A DNA stretch of 44,575 nt, taken from assembly GCA_046734915.1 (NCBI GenBank), contig JBKPSC010000231.1:1-44575 (forward strand), in the 5' to 3' direction. The DNA comes from Acidobacteriota bacterium. GTDB taxonomy: Bacteria; Acidobacteriota; Vicinamibacteria; Vicinamibacterales; CAVVIG01. The notes below the pieces were generated by a model. It had not been told where the DNA came from, did no database searches, and saw only the letters and a program-made list of their open reading frames with translations. Every line of letters starts with the position of its first letter. Position 1 is the first letter of the stretch. Made by a program: the position numbers and the translations under genes. Below are positions 2,045 to 8,016 of the stretch, piece after piece.

Positions 2045-3838
2045 TCAGACCTTCAAACCGACAGCACGCATGAGCTCCAGCGCGTTGCTGTGCTCGACGA
2101 CACCCGGGCGCATACGGTAGTCGAACACCATCGTACCGTTATCGATGCGATCTTCGAAATGAACGTTGACCGCGGCGGCGGCGAGCGAACCGGTGAACGC
2201 CGTCAGCGCAAGATCGTGCGTCGTGATTAGGCCGATGGCGCCGGCCTCGACCAGCGTCCGGACGATGGCTTCGGCACCGATTCGCCGATCGTGGGAGTTG
2301 GTGCCGTGCAGGATTTCGTCGAGGAGAAACAGCAGCGGCAGCGGGCCGGCCGCCAGTTCGACGATGGTCCGTATCCGGAGGATTTCCGCGTAGAACCGCG
2401 AGAGGCCGGCCTGTAGCGAGTCCTCTACGCGCAGCGTCGCGCCGATCGCCAGCAGCGACAGCCTCATCGATGTCGCGCAGACCGGCGCGCCGGCGAGTGC
2501 CAGTACGACGTTGCAGCCGATCGCCCGCAACAGCGTGCTCTTCCCCGACATGTTCGACCCGCTGACCACCAGGACGCGAGGCCAGTCGCCACCCAGTCGT
2601 AGGTCGTTCGGCACCGCCGCGTGACTCACGATGAGCGGGTGAGCCAGTGCTTCGGCCTCGAGCAGCGGCCCCTCTCTCTCGACCGACGGAAACGGGTTTT
2701 CCGGACGCTCGTAGGCGAACGCGGCAAGGCTGCTCAAGGCCTCGAGCTCACCAAGCGCATCCAGCCACGACGCCAGCGCCGCCCCGTGGCGCGCCTGCCA
2801 GCGATCGATGGCGACCGATGCCTGGCTGCGAACGAGCAGCAGCGCGCCGATTGGCGCGAAGAGCGGGTTGTGCAACGAGTCGAGGGCAGAGACGAATGTC
2901 TGCAGTCGCTTGAGACAAGCCGACGGGGCGACACCTTCCCGCATCAGCCGGCGATGAATGCCGACGAGCCTTGGCGATGAGAAAGCCTCACCCTCGACCC
3001 GCGCCAGGAGCGCGACGAGCAGGCGCAGGTCGAGCGAAGGCGCCTCGATGCGGTGAGTGGCCTCGGCAATCTGCTGGCGCCAGACGGCGACGAGGCCCAT
3101 TTGGAGGAGCAGCCAAGCCAGTGGAATCCAGACGTCCACCAGATCGGCTAAGGCCAGCGCAATGGTCGCCGCCGTGCCCGCAGCCGACACAGCGAAGAGC
3201 GCTCCGGCGATTGCTGGCAGGCCGAGCGGCGACGTCCGGGCCCACTGATCCAAGGCGGATGTACGTCCGACGTGGGTCTCGGCGGCGAGCACCGCGAGGT
3301 CTTCTCGGAAGTCGAGCCGGCCGCGCAACTCCTGGACACCCTGCTGCCGTCCCTGGATCTCGTCGACGTCGGCAGGAGCCCGAAGCCAGTCGGCGAGGGT
3401 CTCCTCGCCCGCTTCGGTTCGCGCCGTCGTCAGCAATTGGAAGAGAGAGCCCGACCCGAAAAGATCCAGGTCGCGAACGTACGGGTGTTCGGTCGCGAAG
3501 CGGGCACCGTCCGGTCCGGTGCCAACCCATTTACCGTCCATGCGCTCGAGCCCTCGCACGTACAGTCGCTTCGCCCGCGCTGCGCGCTCGTTGCGCTGCA
3601 ACACCAGGGCGTGGACCACGACCAACGCAAGGAACAGCACTGCCGGCGCGATGAACGTGATGATCGGCCCGGTACCACGGATGAACACCAGCCACCCGGT
3701 GAAAGCGGCCACCCCCGCCACCGCCAGACGCAGATTGGAGATGCGGATGTGCTGGCGATCGCCTCTGGCGATGCGCTCGTCCCACAGCGCAATGCGACGC
3801 TGGTACTCGGCGCGTGGACCTGCCGCGCCTGTGGTCAC
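2045..3838 (-). CDS. MutS-related ATPase (domain V only) with N-terminal transmembrane segments
   Basis: Walker A SGSNMSGKSTLLR, SRFYAEI, Walker B LFLLDEILHGTN, ITTHDL. Hydrophobic helices near the N-terminus and mid-protein. GTG at 3838 overlaps the upstream TGA (GTGA). Confidence 0.88.
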   Translation of the reverse strand: MTTGAAGPRAEYQRRIALWDERIARGDRQHIRISNLRLAVAGVAAFTGWLVFIRGTGPIITFIAPAVLFLALVVVHALVLQRNERAARAKRLYVRGLERMDGKWVGTGPDGARFATEHPYVRDLDLFGSGSLFQLLTTARTEAGEETLADWLRAPADVDEIQGRQQGVQELRGRLDFREDLAVLAAETHVGRTSALDQWARTSPLGLPAIAGALFAVSAAGTAATIALALADLVDVWIPLAWLLLQMGLVAVWRQQIAEATHRIEAPSLDLRLLVALLARVEGEAFSSPRLVGIHRRLMREGVAPSACLKRLQTFVSALDSLHNPLFAPIGALLLVRSQASVAIDRWQARHGAALASWLDALGELEALSSLAAFAYERPENPFPSVEREGPLLEAEALAHPLIVSHAAVPNDLRLGGDWPRVLVVSGSNMSGKSTLLRAIGCNVVLALAGAPVCATSMRLSLLAIGATLRVEDSLQAGLSRFYAEILRIRTIVELAAGPLPLLFLLDEILHGTNSHDRRIGAEAIVRTLVEAGAIGLITTHDLALTAFTGSLAAAAVNVHFEDRIDNGTMVFDYRMRPGVVEHSNALELMRAVGLKV

Positions 3839-4839
3839 GACGTTCGCGTGAGCAGCTCGCGTGCGATCCGGACGTTGCCGTCGATGGCGCCCTGCAGTTC
3901 GTCGACGGCGATCCACTCATTGGCTGTGTGCGCCAGGTGGATCGACCCCGGACCGTACAGCAGCGGCTGACCCCAGCGATTCAGGAATGGAATGTCGGTC
4001 GTGTACGGGAACACCGCCGAGTCGAAGCCAGGTACCGTCGTCATGCGGACGGGAGGGACTTCAAGGACGTGCTCGATGTTGACACGAGACTCGAGGGGCG
4101 CGATGGCGCGGCGAATCTCGCTGGCGTCCGAAACCGTCCGGAACAGCACTTCAGCCTCGGCCGATGGCGACACGACGTTGGGTGCCACGCCGCCGACGAT
4201 GAGACCGACCGTATAGTGTGTGCGCCCCAGGATCGAATCTTCAGGCAGGGCCATGGCCCGCAGCGCGACCAGCGCGTCAATGAGCTTGTCGATCGCCGAT
4301 TCGCCCAGCTCGGGAAACGATGAGTGCGCTGCGCGCCCGGATGCGCGCAGCCGGAGCCTGAGCAGACCGCGGGTGGCCACGCCGAGCCGCAGGTCCGTCG
4401 GCTCACCGTCGACCAGATACTCGCATCCGCTCGTCGTACGGTTCGCGACGCGCGCGCCGTCGCTGCCGCGCTCCTCGCCGACCACGAACAGCAGGCCGGC
4501 TCGCGTTTCGCCTTCGCTGCGAAGATGTTCGACGGCGGCAACCTGCGCCGCCAGAATGCCTTTGGCGTCGCAGGCGCCACGGCCGTAGATGCGGCCGCCG
4601 TCGACGCGGCTCGGAAAGAATGGCGGCACGCAGTCGTAATGCGTGGAGAAGACGACCTTCGGGGAGCCTACTGTGGCCAGCACGTTGAAGCGCGTCTCGT
4701 CGACGCGTTGCTCGGCGACCTCGTAACCGAGGTCCTTCAAATACTGGGAGAGCCAGCGTCCAGCCTGTCCTTCGCGTCCGGTCGTCGAGTCGATGTCGAC
4801 GAGCGATCGCGTCAGCTGAATGACGTCGCTAATGGTCAC
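3835..4839 (-). CDS. M20 family deacylase (ArgE/DapE-like; probable acyl-diaminopimelate deacylase by context)
   Basis: STHYDCVPP, GRGACDAKG, VGEERGSDGA, DGEPT, GRAAHSS, YGPGSIHLAHT. Start at GTG 4839, 2 nt after the dapA stop. Confidence 0.85.
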   Translation of the reverse strand: MTISDVIQLTRSLVDIDSTTGREGQAGRWLSQYLKDLGYEVAEQRVDETRFNVLATVGSPKVVFSTHYDCVPPFFPSRVDGGRIYGRGACDAKGILAAQVAAVEHLRSEGETRAGLLFVVGEERGSDGARVANRTTSGCEYLVDGEPTDLRLGVATRGLLRLRLRASGRAAHSSFPELGESAIDKLIDALVALRAMALPEDSILGRTHYTVGLIVGGVAPNVVSPSAEAEVLFRTVSDASEIRRAIAPLESRVNIEHVLEVPPVRMTTVPGFDSAVFPYTTDIPFLNRWGQPLLYGPGSIHLAHTANEWIAVDELQGAIDGNVRIARELLTRTS

Positions 4840-4841
4840 AA

Positions 4842-5744
4842 TCAGTGGACCACCACAGCCTTGACCAGATCGAGGGACTTCAGCACCTTGAGAATCCGGT
4901 CCTTCGAATCCTGCCGCGGCGACACCATCGGCAGTCGATACACCTCCTCGAGAAGCCCCATCGCCGCCATCGCCGCCTTGACGGGGCCGGGGTTCGACTC
5001 GACGAAGTTCACCTGCATCAGCGGCAGCAGGCGGTCGTGCATCGCGCGGGCTGCGCTGAAGTCGCCGTGCTCGGCCGCCTCGACCATCTGGACCATCTCT
5101 GCGGGCACCTGATTCGACGCGACCGAGATCACGCCGCGGCCGCCGATCGCCATCAGCGGCAGCGTGATCGCATCGTCGCCCGACAGCACGATGAACTCGG
5201 ACGGAACGAGGTGGCAGATCTCGCACATCTGTGAGATGTTGCCCGACGCTTCCTTGACCCCGACGATGTTGGGCAGCGCGGCCAGCCGCGCCACGGTCGA
5301 CGGCTCGATGTTCACGCCGGTGCGGCTCGGAACGTTGTAAAGAACGATCGGCAGCGGCGTGCTGTCGGCAATAGCCCGGAAGTGCTGATACAGACCTTCC
5401 TGGGTCGGTTTGTTGTAGTAGGGAGCCACCGACAGCAGGCCTGAGGCGCCGGCCCTCAGCATCTCTGACGCCAGATGGATGATCTCGCGCGTGTCGTAGC
5501 CGCCGGCGCCGGCCAGCACGGGCACCTGGCCGCCGGCTTCATCGACGAGGATTTCGACAATGCGCACCCGCTCCTCGAGCGTGAGCGTTGGGTTCTCTCC
5601 AGTCGTGCCGCAGGGCACGACGAAGTGAATGCCGGCGTCGACCTGCCGGCGACCCAGGCTGCGGACCGCCTTCTCATCGAGATCGCCGGATGACGTGAAA
5701 GGAGTGACGAGCGCGGTACCCACGCCGGTCCATCTGGTTCTCAT
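4842..5744 (-). CDS. dapA: 4-hydroxy-tetrahydrodipicolinate synthase
   Basis: TALVTPF, CGTTGE, PYYNKPTQEG, LYNVPSRTG, GVKEASG (Schiff-base Lys), SGDD, ESNPGPVK. Confidence 0.97.
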   Translation of the reverse strand: MRTRWTGVGTALVTPFTSSGDLDEKAVRSLGRRQVDAGIHFVVPCGTTGENPTLTLEERVRIVEILVDEAGGQVPVLAGAGGYDTREIIHLASEMLRAGASGLLSVAPYYNKPTQEGLYQHFRAIADSTPLPIVLYNVPSRTGVNIEPSTVARLAALPNIVGVKEASGNISQMCEICHLVPSEFIVLSGDDAITLPLMAIGGRGVISVASNQVPAEMVQMVEAAEHGDFSAARAMHDRLLPLMQVNFVESNPGPVKAAMAAMGLLEEVYRLPMVSPRQDSKDRILKVLKSLDLVKAVVVH

Positions 5745-5832: not shown

Positions 5833-6537
5833 TCATGTTCCACGCAATCCCAGCACGTCCTGCATGTCGAACCAGCCGCGCTTGCCCTGCACCCACCGGG
5901 CGGCGACCAGCGCGCCGCGGGCGAAAGCGCCTCGATCGCGCGCAGTGTGGGTCAGCGTGATCGAATCCGACGGCCCCTCGAAGCCGACCGTGTGCGTGCC
6001 GGGGATCGAACCGGCGCGCGTGCTGGAGACATCGATGGCGCGCTCATAACCGGCAGCTTCCATCGTGCGCTTGAGCAGCAGCGCGGTCCCGGATGGCGCA
6101 TCCTTCTTGGTCGAATGATGCGCTTCGTGCAGCCAGGCGCCAAACTCGGCCTGCTCGGCGAACCGCCGCGCCGCGAAGCGTACGAGGGCCTCGAAGATCA
6201 CGACGCCGGTCGCGAAGTTCGGAGCCGCCACGATGCCGGCTCCGGCATCGGCGACCGCCCGACGAAGCACCGCCTCGTGCTGCTGCCAGCCGGTGGTGCC
6301 GAGGACGACGTTGAGGCCACGCCGGGCGAGGGCCGGCACGTTCGACACGACGGCATCGCCGAGCGAGAAGTCGATGGCGACGTCCGCGAATCCCCGCCAC
6401 CGGTCGTCGTCGGCGGCGCCTGTATGCGACGGCGACTCCGGGTCGATGACCCCGACGACTTCACCGCCATATCCACCGGCGAGCTCGCCAACCAGTCGGC
6501 CCATTCGGCCGTATCCGACGAGAACGATGCGCATCAC
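5833..6537 (-). CDS. dapB: 4-hydroxy-tetrahydrodipicolinate reductase
   Basis: GYGRMG Rossmann motif, DVAIDFS, VLGTTGW, APNF, EAHHSTKKDAPSGTA, IPGTHTV, HTARDRGAFARGA. Confidence 0.96.
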   Translation of the reverse strand: MMRIVLVGYGRMGRLVGELAGGYGGEVVGVIDPESPSHTGAADDDRWRGFADVAIDFSLGDAVVSNVPALARRGLNVVLGTTGWQQHEAVLRRAVADAGAGIVAAPNFATGVVIFEALVRFAARRFAEQAEFGAWLHEAHHSTKKDAPSGTALLLKRTMEAAGYERAIDVSSTRAGSIPGTHTVGFEGPSDSITLTHTARDRGAFARGALVAARWVQGKRGWFDMQDVLGLRGT

Positions 6538-6545
6538 CGCACGCT

Positions 6546-6592
6546 TTCAATCTGCAACCAATCTTCAATCTTCAATCTTCAAATCTGCAATT
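6546..6592. repeat. Degenerate 7-mer tandem array (TTCAATC)n
   Basis: ttcaatctgcaaccaatcttcaatcttcaatcttcaaatctgcaatt, between asd and dapB. Confidence 0.75.
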
Positions 6593-7632
6593 CAAAGGAT
6601 ACCTTGCTTGTGCATCAGCTCCGCGTTCAGAATCGCCGCGCCGGCCGCGCCGCGAATCGTGTTGTGGCCGAGGGCCACGAACTTGTAATCGAACAGCGGA
6701 CAGGGCCGGAGCCGACCAACGGTGACCGTCATCCCACCGTCCCGGTTGGCGTCGAGAATCGGCTGCGGGCGGTTCTGCTCGGTCAGATAGACGATGGGCT
6801 GTCTTGGCGCGGACGGAAGCTCGAGCTTCTGCGGCTCACCGCGGAATGAGTTCCACGCGTCGATGATGGCTTCGGGCACGGGTTTCTGGTCGAGCGCCAC
6901 GGAAATCGATCCAGTGTGGCCATTCTGAACGGGGACGCGCGTCGTCGTCGCGCTCAGCCGCACCGGATGGTGTGCAACGGCATTCCCCTTGAGCGTGCCC
7001 AGGATCTTCTGTGTTTCGGTTTCGACCTTCTCCTCTTCGCCCCCGCCAATGTGCGGAATGATGTTGCCGAGGATGTCCCACGACGGGACGCCCGGGTAAC
7101 CGGCGCCGGAAATCGCCTGCAACGTGGTGACGATGGTGCGCGTCAGCCCGAACTGGCGCAGCGGCGCCAGTGCCATCGCCAGCACAACAGCCGCGCAATT
7201 CGGGTTCGTGACGATGCTGCCCTTCCATCCCATCGCAGCGCTCTGCGCCTTCAGCAGCGCGAGGTGATCCGCGTTGACCTCGGGAATCAGCAACGGAACC
7301 GTCGATTCCATGCGGTAGTTACGCGAATTGCTGACCACGATGTGGCCGGCGGCGGCGAACGCCGCCTCGATCTCACCGGCGACCGAGGAGTCGAGACCCG
7401 AAAACACCAGCTTGGGCGCGTTGCCAGGCGCCGCCGCTTCGACGACTTTCCTGGCGACGTCGTCGCGAAGTGGTGATGCGAGACGCCAGGCGGCGGCGTC
7501 ACGGAACGCCTTGCCCTCGGATCGCTGGCTGGCGCCGAGCCAGTCGACCCGGAACCACGGGTGGTCGGCGAGAAGTGCGATGAATTGCTGGCCGACCATG
7601 CCGGTCGCGCCAAGAATGCCCACGGGAATCAT
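6592..7632 (-). CDS. asd: Aspartate-semialdehyde dehydrogenase (archaeal/eukaryotic-type)
   Basis: GILGATGMVGQ, PLLIPEVNADH, NPNC (catalytic Cys), QAISGAGYPGVPS, RVPVQNGHT, LGHNTIRGAAG. Confidence 0.97.
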   Translation of the reverse strand: MIPVGILGATGMVGQQFIALLADHPWFRVDWLGASQRSEGKAFRDAAAWRLASPLRDDVARKVVEAAAPGNAPKLVFSGLDSSVAGEIEAAFAAAGHIVVSNSRNYRMESTVPLLIPEVNADHLALLKAQSAAMGWKGSIVTNPNCAAVVLAMALAPLRQFGLTRTIVTTLQAISGAGYPGVPSWDILGNIIPHIGGGEEEKVETETQKILGTLKGNAVAHHPVRLSATTTRVPVQNGHTGSISVALDQKPVPEAIIDAWNSFRGEPQKLELPSAPRQPIVYLTEQNRPQPILDANRDGGMTVTVGRLRPCPLFDYKFVALGHNTIRGAAGAAILNAELMHKQGIL

Positions 7633-7697
7633 ATGGATCGTCCTCTGAAAAAGTGAAGGTCGGGATTGCGGCGGGTGCCGAAGCGGCGGCCGCAGTC

Positions 7698-7731
7698 AAA
7701 AAAAAAGCCGACGCGGAAGGCCCGTGTCGGC
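7698..7731 (-). terminator. Intrinsic terminator inside the asd operon 5' leader (attenuator terminator)
   Basis: Minus strand GCCGAC-ACGG-GCCTT-CCGC-GTCGGC followed by 9 U, about 65 nt upstream of the asd ATG and downstream of the promoter. Confidence 0.88.
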
Positions 7732-7759
7732 AGTCAAAGTGCTCGGATCGCGTCGAGAC

Positions 7760-7840
7760 TCAGTTTTCGAGCAGCATGCCTCCGACAGGGGTGACCCGCT
7801 TTCGACCAGTGCACTTTCGAGTAAGGAGTCGGAGGCGCAT
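7760..7840 (-). CDS. Putative leader peptide MRLRLLTRKCTGRKRVTPVGGMLLEN (26 aa)
   Basis: ATG lies 10 nt downstream of the TATACT -10 box with no SD (near-leaderless). The ORF spans segments 1 and 2 and stops before the terminator. Confidence 0.45.
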   Translation of the reverse strand: MRLRLLTRKCTGRKRVTPVGGMLLEN

Positions 7841-7850
7841 GCGACTTAGT

Positions 7851-7879
7851 AGTATACGAAGGCCTTTCACAAAGGTCAA
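7851..7879 (-). promoter_or_regulatory. Sigma70-type promoter of the asd-dap operon
   Basis: Minus strand TTGACC-17 nt-TATACT. The spacer contains the palindrome CCTTT-N3-AAAGG (7863-7875). Confidence 0.8.
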
Positions 7880-8016
7880 TCGAGCGCGCTGTCTCCGCGC
7901 AGGAAAGGCCCTTCGCCCGGGCTAGAATTGTGCTTCATCTTCAAGGCCGAACGTTCGGCGATTCCTGCCGGTTGGCTTCGTGCCGACGGCGCCGACTGGC
8001 AGCAGCGAGATCCTGT

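What the first reader, a model, noticed from the sequence alone, without database searches (positions are those of the whole stretch)
7640..7879. Candidate new attenuator/riboswitch controlling the asd-dapB-dapA-deacylase (lysine/DAP) operon
Seen in sequence (minus strand): promoter TTGACC-17-TATACT, then a ~210-nt leader. Segment 1 GCCUCCGAC pairs with segment 2 GUCGGAGGC (9 bp, flanked by GCAUGC on both sides). Segment 2 can instead pair with segment 3 (CCCCUGUCGG/CCGACACGGG, 9 of 10 bp), which is the 5' arm of a GC-rich terminator followed by U9 just before asd. This is the 1:2 / 2:3 / 3:4 logic of classical attenuators such as trp, his and thr. The 1:2 helix encloses two CGAAAG motifs (possible GNRA loops). 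I see none of the canonical lysine-riboswitch landmarks (5' AGAGG, long P2/P3 kissing arms) and no T-box motif. Inference: an uncatalogued switch sensing lysine, DAP or aspartate-family status.
Basis: partly seen in the sequence, partly recalled or inferred. Interest (0 to 1): 0.85.

Follow-up and report, generated by a model that had tools for sequence, protein, structure and literature searches.

The report
Lysine-codon leader-peptide attenuator before asd
The leader in front of the asd-dapB-dapA lysine operon is most likely not a riboswitch but a classical attenuator, in which a ribosome translating a 26-codon leader peptide with two lysine codons decides whether transcription stops at a terminator.

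Summary
No Rfam family matches it.

The two CGAAAG motifs are Arg-Lys codons in that ORF.

- **ORF conservation:** it is present upstream of asd in 30 of 30 loci of the family (Vicinamibacterales, Acidobacteriota). Its stop is TGA, TAG or TAA at one place, and its length varies from 21 to 34 codons.
- **Wider family:** a covariance model built from these leaders finds related leaders in 64 of 151 genomes of the order. It finds none in 140 genomes of other orders of the phylum.
- **Codon content follows operon content:** leaders of dap-containing operons carry two or more Lys codons in 64 of 69 cases. Leaders of asd-ask-hom-thrC carry Thr/Ile and no Lys. A hom-metY-metX leader is Met-rich, and a his-operon leader carries nine His.

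This is the signature of ribosome-mediated attenuation, so the element is a new, uncatalogued member of a known kind. A metabolite-binding riboswitch is unlikely.

Transcription start, translation and lysine response are inferred, not shown.

The parts
7874..7879 (-). -35 hexamer TTGACC
   Evidence: Sequence and promoter scan. It is not conserved in relatives, most of which have an extended -10, TGCTATACT, instead.
7851..7856 (-). -10 hexamer TATACT
   Evidence: TATACT is present in all 30 family loci and is exact in 41 of 54 leaders of other families.
7760..7840 (-). Leader ORF of 26 codons plus a TGA stop (MRLRLLTRKCTGRKRVTPVGGMLLEN). Its ATG lies 10 nt after the -10 box, so the transcript is probably leaderless or nearly so.
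   Evidence: The ORF is present in 30 of 30 family loci. Starts are ATG 26, GTG 2, TTG 2; stops are TGA 13, TAG 11, TAA 6; lengths are 21-34 codons. Frame 0 is open in 30 of 30, against 16 and 21 of 30 for the other two frames. The transcription start and translation are inferred.
7814..7816 (-). Lys codon 9 (AAG) within the first CGAAAG; proposed main regulatory codon
   Evidence: In the thr-operon leaders of family f4 this region reads Arg-Ile-Arg (CGA ATT CGG); that the Ile sits at the same position as this Lys is my reading of the sequences, no alignment of f4 with f1 was made. Leaders of dap operons keep two or more Lys codons in 64 of 69 cases.
7799..7801 (-). Lys codon 14 (AAG) within the second CGAAAG (Arg-Lys-Arg)
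   Evidence: AAGCGG is nearly invariant in alignment A1.
7828..7836 (-). Segment 1 (GCCUCCGAC), inside codons 2-5 of the leader ORF
   Evidence: The homologous helix in alignment A1 has changes on both sides in 8 of 10 pairs; 3 of 500 shuffles reach this.
7778..7791 (-). Segment 2 (CCCCUGUCGGAGGC), codons 17-21. It pairs either with segment 1 or with segment 3.
   Evidence: The 2:3 helix is paired in 89% of cells in A1, but without covariation.
7741..7772 (-). Hairpin P3 (GCUCG...CGAGC). Its 5' arm holds the last codons of the leader ORF, and the stop codon lies just after it, in the loop.
   Evidence: RNAalifold consensus; the pairs are kept in 28-30 of 30 sequences and do not vary.
7698..7731 (-). 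Intrinsic terminator: segment 3 (7731-7721), loop, segment 4 (7716-7707) and U9 (7706-7698)
   Evidence: The six basal pairs are invariant in 30 of 30 sequences.
6592..7632 (-). asd, aspartate-semialdehyde dehydrogenase, first gene of the operon, with Shine-Dalgarno AGAGGA at 7646-7641
   Evidence: NCBIfam NF006416 and TIGR00978, above their cut-offs.
5833..6537 (-). dapB
   Evidence: TIGR00036, 134 bits against a cut-off of 122.
4842..5744 (-). dapA
   Evidence: TIGR00674, 339.6 bits.
3835..4830 (-). ArgE/DapE-family deacylase. The true start is probably near 4830; the listed ORF runs on to 5226 and overlaps dapA.
   Evidence: Family matches begin at residue ~133 of the 463-aa ORF and score below the curated cut-offs. 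It is the homologue of the last gene of the dapB-dapA-dapD-dapE operons of sister families.

Best explanation
The leader is a ribosome-mediated (leader-peptide) transcription attenuator of the asd-dapB-dapA-deacylase operon, in a version tuned to lysine.

**Proposed sequence of events:**
1. Transcription starts a few bases before the AUG at 7840. This is inferred from the fixed 9-10 nt distance to the -10 box.
2. A ribosome translates the 26-codon leader ORF.
3. When lysyl-tRNA is plentiful, the ribosome runs through to the stop codon in hairpin P3 and leaves. Segment 1 then pairs with segment 2, or segment 2 is covered by the ribosome. Segments 3 and 4 form the terminator, and transcription stops at the U9 tract before asd.
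4. When lysyl-tRNA is scarce, the ribosome stalls at or just before the first Lys codon (codon 9). It covers segment 1, so segment 2 is free to pair with segment 3 as segment 3 emerges. The terminator cannot form and the operon is transcribed.

**Shown here:** the ORF and its conservation; the three mutually exclusive helices; the terminator; and the match between leader codon content and operon content across an order of bacteria.

**Inferred:** the transcription start, translation of the ORF, stalling, and the response to lysine.
For: 1. **A conserved ORF.** It occurs in 30 of 30 loci of the family. The start codon lies 9-13 nt after TATACT in 23 of 30. Three different stop codons occur at one place, and lengths run from 21 to 34 codons, so every length difference is in frame. 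The untranslated spacer from stop to terminator (45-62 nt) shows no period of three.

2. **The helices.** The 1:2 helix has changes on both sides in 8 of 10 pairs (3 of 500 shuffles reach this). The 2:3 helix is paired in 89% of cells. The terminator base is invariant, as expected for a strand that must fit two partners.

3. **A wider family.** Covariance model R1 finds related leaders in 64 of 151 genomes of the order. Of the 55 hits in other families, 53 lie directly upstream of aspartate-family operons.

4. **Codon content follows the operon**.
   - Operons holding dap genes have two or more Lys codons in 27 of 29 and 10 of 10 leaders in other families, and in 27 of 30 in the window's family. 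None has zero.
   - asd-ask-hom-thrC (2 loci): no Lys, and Thr+Ile = 8.
   - asd-ask only (11 loci, one family): 1 Lys, about 6 Thr, 2 Ile, 2 Met.
   - hom-metY-metX: 6 Met.
   - his operon: 9 His.
   - Genome G166 has both a Thr/Ile/Met leader before asd-ask and a Lys leader before dapB-dapA-dapD-dapE.
   - Arg codons are about equally common in all classes, so they do not mark a class.

5. **Folding with a masked ribosome footprint.** Stalls in roughly the first 11 codons favour the antiterminator, and stalls further on favour the terminator. The first conserved Lys lies inside the favourable range in 18 of 30 family leaders; this is my count from the printed profiles.

6. **No competing regulator.** No lysine riboswitch was found in 31 related genomes, while the control search found it in 4 of 14 known genomes. 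The window has no Rfam match.
Against: - Only two Lys codons are present, and they are not adjacent. Arg codons are more numerous (about 5 per leader).
- In the window's own leader, segment 1 lies further 5' than in most relatives. The masked-footprint model removes the terminator only for stalls at codons 4-8, not at Lys 9, and not at all with the narrower footprint.
- In other families the equilibrium model removes the terminator in only 26 of 53 leaders. Antitermination would therefore have to be kinetic.
- Without a ribosome, the truncated-transcript model already prefers 2:3 over 1:2 in many leaders.
- Seven of 30 family loci have 38-74 nt between the -10 box and the start codon, with no clear Shine-Dalgarno sequence.
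- The 2:3, P3 and 3:4 helices show no covariation, because they hardly vary.
- The other two frames are also open in 16 and 21 of 30 leaders.
- The genomes are related, so the counts are not independent events. The asd-ask class comes from a single family and the thr class from two genomes of one family.
- No transcription start, ribosome occupancy or lysine response has been measured.
Confidence: 0.72

Rival explanations
1. A metabolite-binding riboswitch for lysine, diaminopimelate or a related compound. The 1:2 helix with its enclosed region would be the aptamer, and ligand binding would favour the terminator.
For: The expression platform has the right form, with mutually exclusive 1:2, 2:3 and 3:4 helices. 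The region inside the 1:2 helix is well conserved within the family. No known riboswitch occupies this place.
Against: - The conserved letters inside the helix are read in frame as Arg-Lys codons of an ORF with a conserved start and variable stop codons.
- By inspection of the sequences printed, the hairpin inside the 1:2 helix does not pair consistently across the family leaders. This inner hairpin was never counted with a tool; one search tested only the 1:2 helix itself.
- In sister families the 'aptamer' region is replaced by Thr/Ile/Met, Met or His codon runs that match the operon.
- Insertions of 9-27 nt in this region are tolerated as long as they stay in frame.
Confidence: 0.04
2. A translation-coupled attenuator without lysine specificity. 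It would report general translation capacity, or several amino acids at once (Arg, Thr and Lys), rather than lysine alone.
For: The leader has about 5 Arg and 2-3 Thr codons beside 2 Lys codons. asd serves Thr, Met and Lys. Leaders of asd-dap operons in family f6 are rich in both Thr and Lys. The modelled window of antitermination in the window's own leader covers codons 4-8 (Arg, Leu, Leu, Thr, Arg), not Lys 9.
Against: Lys codons are the class-specific feature: two or more in 64 of 69 dap leaders, none in the thr, met and his leaders. Arg is equally common in all classes. Leaders of dapB-dapA operons without asd keep Lys and lose most Thr.
Confidence: 0.14
3. The small ORF encodes a peptide that matters in its own right. 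It could be a nascent-chain arrest or sensor peptide acting in the ribosome tunnel (as TnaC or SpeFL do), or a free micropeptide.
For: The tail ...R-V-G-G-V-x-x-L-[D/E]-x-stop recurs across families, also where the nucleotides differ at third codon positions (GGA GGA against GGT GGT).
Against: The tail overlaps segment 2 and the 5' arm of P3, so RNA pairing can explain much of its conservation. The peptide has no family match in NCBIfam. The class-specific part of the peptide is exactly the codon run expected for tRNA sensing.
Confidence: 0.06
4. The terminated leader transcript is itself a small regulatory RNA that acts in trans, in addition to or instead of cis control.
For: Attenuator-derived small RNAs are known. 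The title and abstract of PMC6614838 in the listing report that the Sinorhizobium rnTrpL attenuator RNA regulates in trans. The leader here is unusually well conserved (70-80% identity across genera).
Against: Nothing here points to a target. The overlapping constraints of coding and three helices are enough to explain the conservation.
Confidence: 0.04

Closest known systems
Classical leader-peptide attenuators of enterobacterial amino-acid operons (thr, trp, his; Rfam Thr_leader, Trp_leader, His_leader). Mechanism and names are from established knowledge.
   Same: A short leader ORF carrying codons of the end-product amino acid, mutually exclusive 1:2, 2:3 and 3:4 helices, and an intrinsic terminator before the first structural gene. 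The sister leaders with Thr/Ile runs before asd-ask-hom-thrC are functional counterparts of thrL.
   Different: There is no sequence or model match to any Rfam leader family, even at E up to 10. The start codon sits 9-10 nt after the -10 box, without a Shine-Dalgarno sequence. The regulatory codons are Lys, few in number and not in tandem. An extra hairpin, P3, lies between segments 2 and 3.
Leaderless leader-peptide attenuators of Actinobacteria (Streptomyces lividans trpL, leuL, ilvL, metL, thrL). Passages of PMC8079986 read.
   Same: The leader peptides are transcribed without a 5' UTR, often hold only one to three regulatory codons, and are followed by hairpins and a U-rich stretch.
   Different: A different phylum and unrelated sequences. 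No lysine-dependent leader is among the eight listed there.
Sinorhizobium meliloti sORF SEP5. Passage of PMC10117765 read.
   Same: A translated small ORF with six Thr and three Lys codons in the 5' UTR of a gene of the aspartate pathway. Its authors propose it as a leader peptide.
   Different: It is an alphaproteobacterial element. No alternative helices or terminator are described in the passage I read, and its supplementary tables were not available to me.
Leader-peptide attenuation of the lysine (alpha-aminoadipate pathway) gene cluster of Thermus thermophilus. Recalled from memory (JBC, about 2005); not found in the library.
   Same: As recalled: Lys codons in a short leader peptide control a lysine biosynthetic cluster by attenuation.
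   Different: A different pathway (AAA, not DAP) and a different phylum. Nothing about it could be checked here.
Lysine riboswitch (L-box, Rfam RF00168)
   Same: The same regulatory niche: it switches lysine-pathway genes such as lysC, asd and dapA off through a terminator when lysine is plentiful (established knowledge).
   Different: No match in the window or in 31 related genomes. The sensor here is a translated ORF, not an aptamer.

Membership tests
Ribosome-mediated (leader-peptide) transcription attenuator | A short ORF with a start codon in the leader, upstream of the terminator | tested here: met
   26-codon ORF at 7840-7760. It is present in 30 of 30 family loci and in 54 of 56 further loci found with the model.
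Ribosome-mediated (leader-peptide) transcription attenuator | The leader ORF holds codons of the amino acid(s) made by the operon | tested here: met
   Two Lys codons in the window. Across the order, Lys, Thr/Ile/Met, Met or His codons follow the operon content. The enrichment in the window itself is modest (2 of 26 codons).
Ribosome-mediated (leader-peptide) transcription attenuator | Mutually exclusive helices 1:2, 2:3 (antiterminator) and 3:4 (terminator), with segment 1 inside or next to the regulatory codons | tested here: met
   All three are present in the sequence. The 1:2 helix shows covariation. The 2:3 and 3:4 helices are conserved without variation. In the window, segment 1 ends 11 nt before the Lys codon.
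Ribosome-mediated (leader-peptide) transcription attenuator | An intrinsic terminator directly before the first structural gene | tested here: met
   GC-rich hairpin at 7731-7707 plus U9, 65 nt before the asd start. It is invariant in 30 of 30 loci.
Ribosome-mediated (leader-peptide) transcription attenuator | Translation of the leader ORF, and readthrough that depends on the amino acid | not testable with these tools
   The only evidence is contigs of soil metatranscriptomes. One of them (X19, record 23) spans 7619-7769 across the terminator. Contigs show no ends, no levels and no conditions.
Lysine riboswitch (RF00168) | A match to the family covariance model | tested here: not met
   No match at the gathering score in the window, none at E up to 10 in 7550-7980, and 0 of 31 related genomes.
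T-box leader (RF00230) | A match to the family covariance model | tested here: not met
   No match.
Rfam amino-acid leader families (Thr_leader, His_leader, Trp_leader and others) | A match to a family covariance model | tested here: not met
   One search lists only three chance-level matches (Hrs10, ncS54, mir-1473), far below their gathering scores. The element works like these families but is not a sequence member of any.

The most novel reading that the evidence does not exclude
The lysine, threonine/isoleucine/methionine, methionine and histidine attenuators of Vicinamibacterales may all descend from one leaderless attenuator scaffold. The shared parts would be the -10 box followed 9 nt later by AUG, a variable run of regulatory codons, a ...V-G-G-V...L-[D/E] tail, hairpin P3 and the terminator. 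On this reading the scaffold was re-programmed for different pathways simply by exchanging the codon run. The conserved tail peptide would additionally act from inside the ribosome to time release at the stop codon. If true, this would be a natural example of a modular, re-codable attenuator, and one that includes a nascent-peptide component.
Probability: 0.25. Interest if true: 0.6.

Novelty: new member of a known kind. Interest (0 to 1): 0.45.

Why it matters
Lysine-pathway genes are usually controlled by the lysine riboswitch, by T-boxes or by proteins. Leader peptides that read lysine codons are rarely reported, and almost nothing is known about attenuation in Acidobacteriota; a passage of PMC2965389 read says as much.

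In this order of common soil bacteria the aspartate-family operons (Lys, Thr, Met), and at least one his operon, carry leaderless leader-peptide attenuators. These are related enough to be found by one covariance model, and their codon content changes with the genes they control.

Three uses follow:
- A clean comparative argument for the mechanism.
- A family that could be added to Rfam, so that these leaders stop being called candidate riboswitches.
- A set of natural variants for testing how few regulatory codons suffice, and where they must lie.

Tried and rejected
**Searches and analyses that gave little or nothing**
- **Rfam.** At the gathering score and at E up to 10 there were only chance-level matches.
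- **NCBIfam scan of the leader peptide.** No family matched.
- **Pattern scan of genome contigs.** Only 4 of 120 hits were real. It therefore gives organism titles but no distribution.
- **RNAalifold on A1.** It returned only P3 and the terminator base. The 1:2 helix had to be named by hand.
- **Equilibrium folding with a masked footprint.** The results are suggestive in the window's family but inconclusive. The window's own leader does not switch at Lys 9. Only 26 of 53 leaders of other families switch at all. Truncated transcripts prefer 2:3 even without a ribosome.
- **Metatranscriptome contigs.** Shares were small and most contigs came from relatives. No ends or levels can be read from contigs. 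Parts without cover mean nothing.
- **Literature on the recalled Thermus thermophilus lysine leader peptide.** It is not in the library; the one paper found uses 'leader peptide' for a mitochondrial signal.
- **Whether a lysine-codon leader before dap genes is in print.** The searches found no description for Acidobacteria. The nearest is the Sinorhizobium SEP5 remark. This holds only for the library searched.
- **Closed resources.** Supplementary tables of PMC10117765 and PMC8079986 could not be seen and may list further leader peptides.

**Readings considered and rejected**
- GNRA tetraloops at CGAAAG: rejected because the motifs are read in frame as codons, and by inspection the enclosing hairpin does not pair consistently.
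- T-box: no match.
- Regulation of the divergent histidine kinase gene at 7930: rejected because the element keeps its place before asd, ask or dapB in relatives that have other neighbours.

**Rows dropped**
- L220 and L236 gave no leader ORF and have no pathway gene downstream. I take them for false model hits and left them out of the codon table.
- In one search only 20 of 30 loci passed both anchor rules. Two of those 20 gave no stop in the output.
Full report
**1. What is in the sequence.** On the minus strand the window holds a promoter-like site: TTGACC at 7879-7874, a 17-nt spacer, and TATACT at 7856-7851. The scan reports it with 10 of 12 matches. A leader of about 210 nt follows, up to the asd start at 7632.
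- GCCTCCGAC (7836-7828) against GTCGGAGGC (7786-7778), each with a GCATGC beside it.
- CCCCTGTCGG (7791-7782) against CCGACACGGG (7730-7721), 9 of 10 pairs.
- A GC-rich hairpin (7731-7707) followed by nine T.
- Two CGAAAG motifs.

The centroid fold shows the 1:2 helix and the terminator. The energy is not unusual for the composition (z -1.36). The genes downstream are asd, dapB, dapA and an ArgE/DapE-family deacylase. A hybrid histidine kinase gene runs the other way.

**2. Not a catalogued RNA.** Rfam 15 gives no match at the gathering scores over the whole window. In 7550-7980 it gives only three chance-level matches at E up to 10. The lysine riboswitch model finds nothing in the window's genome or in 30 relatives, while the same search finds it in 4 of 14 control genomes.

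**3. Conserved in relatives.** A DNA search of 60 related genomes found window positions 7822-7696 at 69-80% identity in about 20 genera of the same family, and the terminator alone in more. In all 30 loci the match lies just upstream of asd. The one scan of named genomes was mostly chance hits. Its four true hits carry titles of Vicinamibacterales or Acidobacteriota MAGs.

Reading the 30 upstream regions shows an ATG shortly after the -10 box, and a frame that stays open to a stop inside the next hairpin.
- The ORF is present in 30 of 30 loci.
- Starts are ATG 26, GTG 2, TTG 2. One TTG call (L018) has an ATG 9 nt after the -10 box that I consider the better start.
- Lengths are 21-34 codons; 26 is the commonest.
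- Stops are TGA 13, TAG 11, TAA 6.
- In 23 of 30 loci the start lies 9-13 nt after TATACT. Most relatives have the extended -10 TGCTATACT, so the transcript would be leaderless or nearly so.
- All length differences inside the ORF are in frame. The spacer from the stop to the terminator varies from 45 to 62 nt with no period of three.
- Where start and stop could be placed by independent anchors, the stop was in frame in 17 of 18 loci. The exception has an earlier in-frame stop.
- Frame 0 is open in 30 of 30, the other two frames in 16 and 21 of 30. This control on its own is only moderate.

In the window the ORF is 7840-7760 and reads MRLRLLTRKCTGRKRVTPVGGMLLEN. The two CGAAAG motifs are Arg8-Lys9 and Arg13-Lys14.

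**5. The helices.** On the alignment of the 30 leaders (A1):
- The 1:2 helix has changes on both sides in 8 of 10 pairs, and 3 of 500 shuffles reach this. One clear example is G-C to A-U in L011.
- The 2:3 helix is paired in 89% of cells, but segment 3 hardly varies, so there is no covariation.
- P3 and the base of the terminator are invariant.

Invariance of a terminator stem across some 30 genera is unusual. It is what one expects if segment 3 must fit both segment 2 and segment 4, while segment 2 must also fit segment 1 and encode Arg-Val-Gly-Gly.

**6. The decisive comparison.** A covariance model built from A1 (R1) matched 64 of 151 genomes sampled from the order. By family the counts were f1 11 of 12, f6 11 of 12 and f8 11 of 12, with the others partial. 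It matched none of 140 genomes from other orders of the phylum; the only hits in that sample were 4 genomes of the order itself.

I fetched the surroundings of all 55 hits in other families plus one second hit in a family genome. 52 lie upstream of asd, aspartokinase or dapB operons. One lies upstream of hom-metY-metX and one upstream of a his operon. Two have neither a leader ORF nor a pathway gene.

A rule that did not look at peptide content recovered a leader ORF in 54 of 56. The rule asked for a start codon 5-15 nt after a -10-like hexamer, 18-50 codons, and a stop 25-95 nt before a GC-rich T-run. TATACT was exact in 41 of the 54.

The codon content follows the operon:

| Operon after the leader | Loci | Regulatory-codon content |
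|---|---|---|
| Holds dap genes, other families | 29 + 10 | two or more Lys in 27 of 29 and 10 of 10; none with zero |
| Holds dap genes, window's family | 30 | two or more Lys in 27 of 30; none with zero |
| asd-ask-hom-thrC | 2 (family f4) | no Lys; Thr+Ile = 8 |
| asd-ask only | 11 (family f8) | 1 Lys, about 6 Thr, 2 Ile, 2 Met, e.g. MSRTTTTIAITTATMRKHGGRGGGVCGLDD |
| hom-metY-metX | 1 | 6 Met; a second Met-rich ORF and terminator follow |
| his operon | 1 | 9 His |

Genome G166 has both a Thr/Ile/Met leader before asd-ask and a Lys leader before dapB-dapA-dapD-dapE. In the thr-operon leaders the corresponding region reads CGA ATT CGG, Arg-Ile-Arg; by my reading the Ile takes the place of the first Lys of the window, but f4 and f1 leaders were not aligned with a tool. 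Arg codons number about 3.5-5 in every class, so they do not mark a class.

These genomes are related and the classes are few. The counts therefore describe a pattern and are not a statistical test.

**7. Mechanism.** The pattern is that of ribosome-mediated attenuation. A ribosome that stalls for want of lysyl-tRNA at codon 9 would cover segment 1 and leave segment 2 free for segment 3. A ribosome that runs on lets 1:2 and 3:4 form.

Folding with a masked footprint gives partial support. In the window's family, stalls within about the first 11 codons favour the antiterminator and later stalls favour the terminator. The first conserved Lys lies inside the favourable range in 18 of 30 leaders; this is my count. 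With the narrower footprint, the terminator stays likely (probability above 0.5) as follows:

| State | Loci with terminator probability above 0.5 |
|---|---|
| No ribosome | 22 of 30 |
| Ribosome at the first Lys | 15 of 30 |
| Ribosome at the last Lys | 28 of 30 |
| Ribosome at the stop | 26 of 30 |

Several results go against a simple picture:
- The window's own leader switches only for stalls at codons 4-8.
- Only 26 of 53 leaders of other families switch at all at equilibrium.
- Truncated transcripts often prefer 2:3 even without a ribosome.

The decision would thus have to be kinetic, as in the classical systems. The exact stall site in the window is open.

**8. Expression.** Four soil metatranscriptome runs hold parts of the stretch as contigs. 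One contig (X19, record 23; 151 nt, 3 differences) runs from 7619 to 7769, that is, from inside asd across the terminator into the leader ORF. This fits readthrough transcripts. However, contigs show neither ends nor levels, and DNA carry-over cannot be excluded.

**9. What is known.**
- Leaderless leader peptides with few regulatory codons are described for Streptomyces lividans: trpL, leuL, ilvL, metL and thrL. No lysine leader is listed (passages of PMC8079986).
- A translated Sinorhizobium sORF with six Thr and three Lys codons before an aspartate-pathway gene has been proposed as a leader peptide (passage of PMC10117765).
- I recall a paper on leader-peptide attenuation of the Thermus thermophilus lysine cluster but could not find it in the library.
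- A passage of PMC2965389 notes that almost no predicted attenuators of Acidobacteria have an assigned function.
- My searches found no description of this family. This holds only for the library searched, and supplements were closed.

**10. Verdict.** The riboswitch reading is not supported. The element is a lysine-codon leader-peptide attenuator and belongs to an order-wide family of related attenuators for aspartate-family operons, and at least one histidine operon. The kind is known and the member is new. Confidence is about 0.7 for the full statement, and higher, about 0.85, for 'ribosome-mediated attenuator' without naming lysine.

Noticed in passing
L235 (G122:C7:55050-60830, minus strand): Two Met-rich leader ORFs in tandem, each followed by its own terminator, lie upstream of hom-metY-metX. 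The first reads MLPRTTTMSMRMPMSMGMRVGGVCAIGS. This looks like a methionine-codon attenuator of the same scaffold.
   Followed up: partly
L234 (G159:C41:235900-241700, minus strand): A leader ORF with nine His codons and a terminator lies upstream of a his operon (hisG and hisD identified). The lysine-leader model found it at E 0.003.
   Followed up: partly
L182 and L188 (genome G166): One genome carries two attenuators of the family: a Thr/Ile/Met-rich leader before asd-aspartokinase and a Lys leader before dapB-dapA-dapD-dapE.
   Followed up: yes
window 3835-5744: The window's operon has no dapD between dapA and the deacylase. Most sister families have dapB-dapA-dapD-dapE. The listed deacylase ORF (3835-5226) overlaps dapA by about 380 nt, so its real start is probably near 4830.
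   Followed up: partly
L002-L030, about 15-40 nt upstream of the -10 box: In most family loci a conserved divergent gene starts right next to the promoter (reverse strand...GAAGCAT). The window's genus has a different neighbour, the histidine kinase gene at 7930.
   Followed up: no
L187 (G142:C3, between the terminator and asd), and also L167, L177, L162, L164: Repeated GC-rich palindromic units lie between the attenuator's terminator and asd, for example three copies of a unit of about 45 nt in L187. They look like REP-type intergenic repeats.
   Followed up: no
L011 (G005:C7): asd downstream of an intact leader matches in several pieces in different frames. This is either a frameshifted gene or an assembly error in a 64%-complete genome.
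   Followed up: no
L202 and L224 (family f5): Here the first gene after a Lys leader is an asd of the other class, with an N-terminus of the type ...GWRGMVGSV.... It is not the archaeal-type asd of the window, and aspartokinase-dapB-dapA-dapE follow it. I identified it by eye only.
   Followed up: no
window 7665-7693, minus strand: A second GC-rich hairpin (GCGGCCGCCGCUUCGGC...GCCGC) lies between the terminator and the asd ribosome-binding site. It appears in the centroid fold. By eye, the spacers printed differ in other genera.
   Followed up: no
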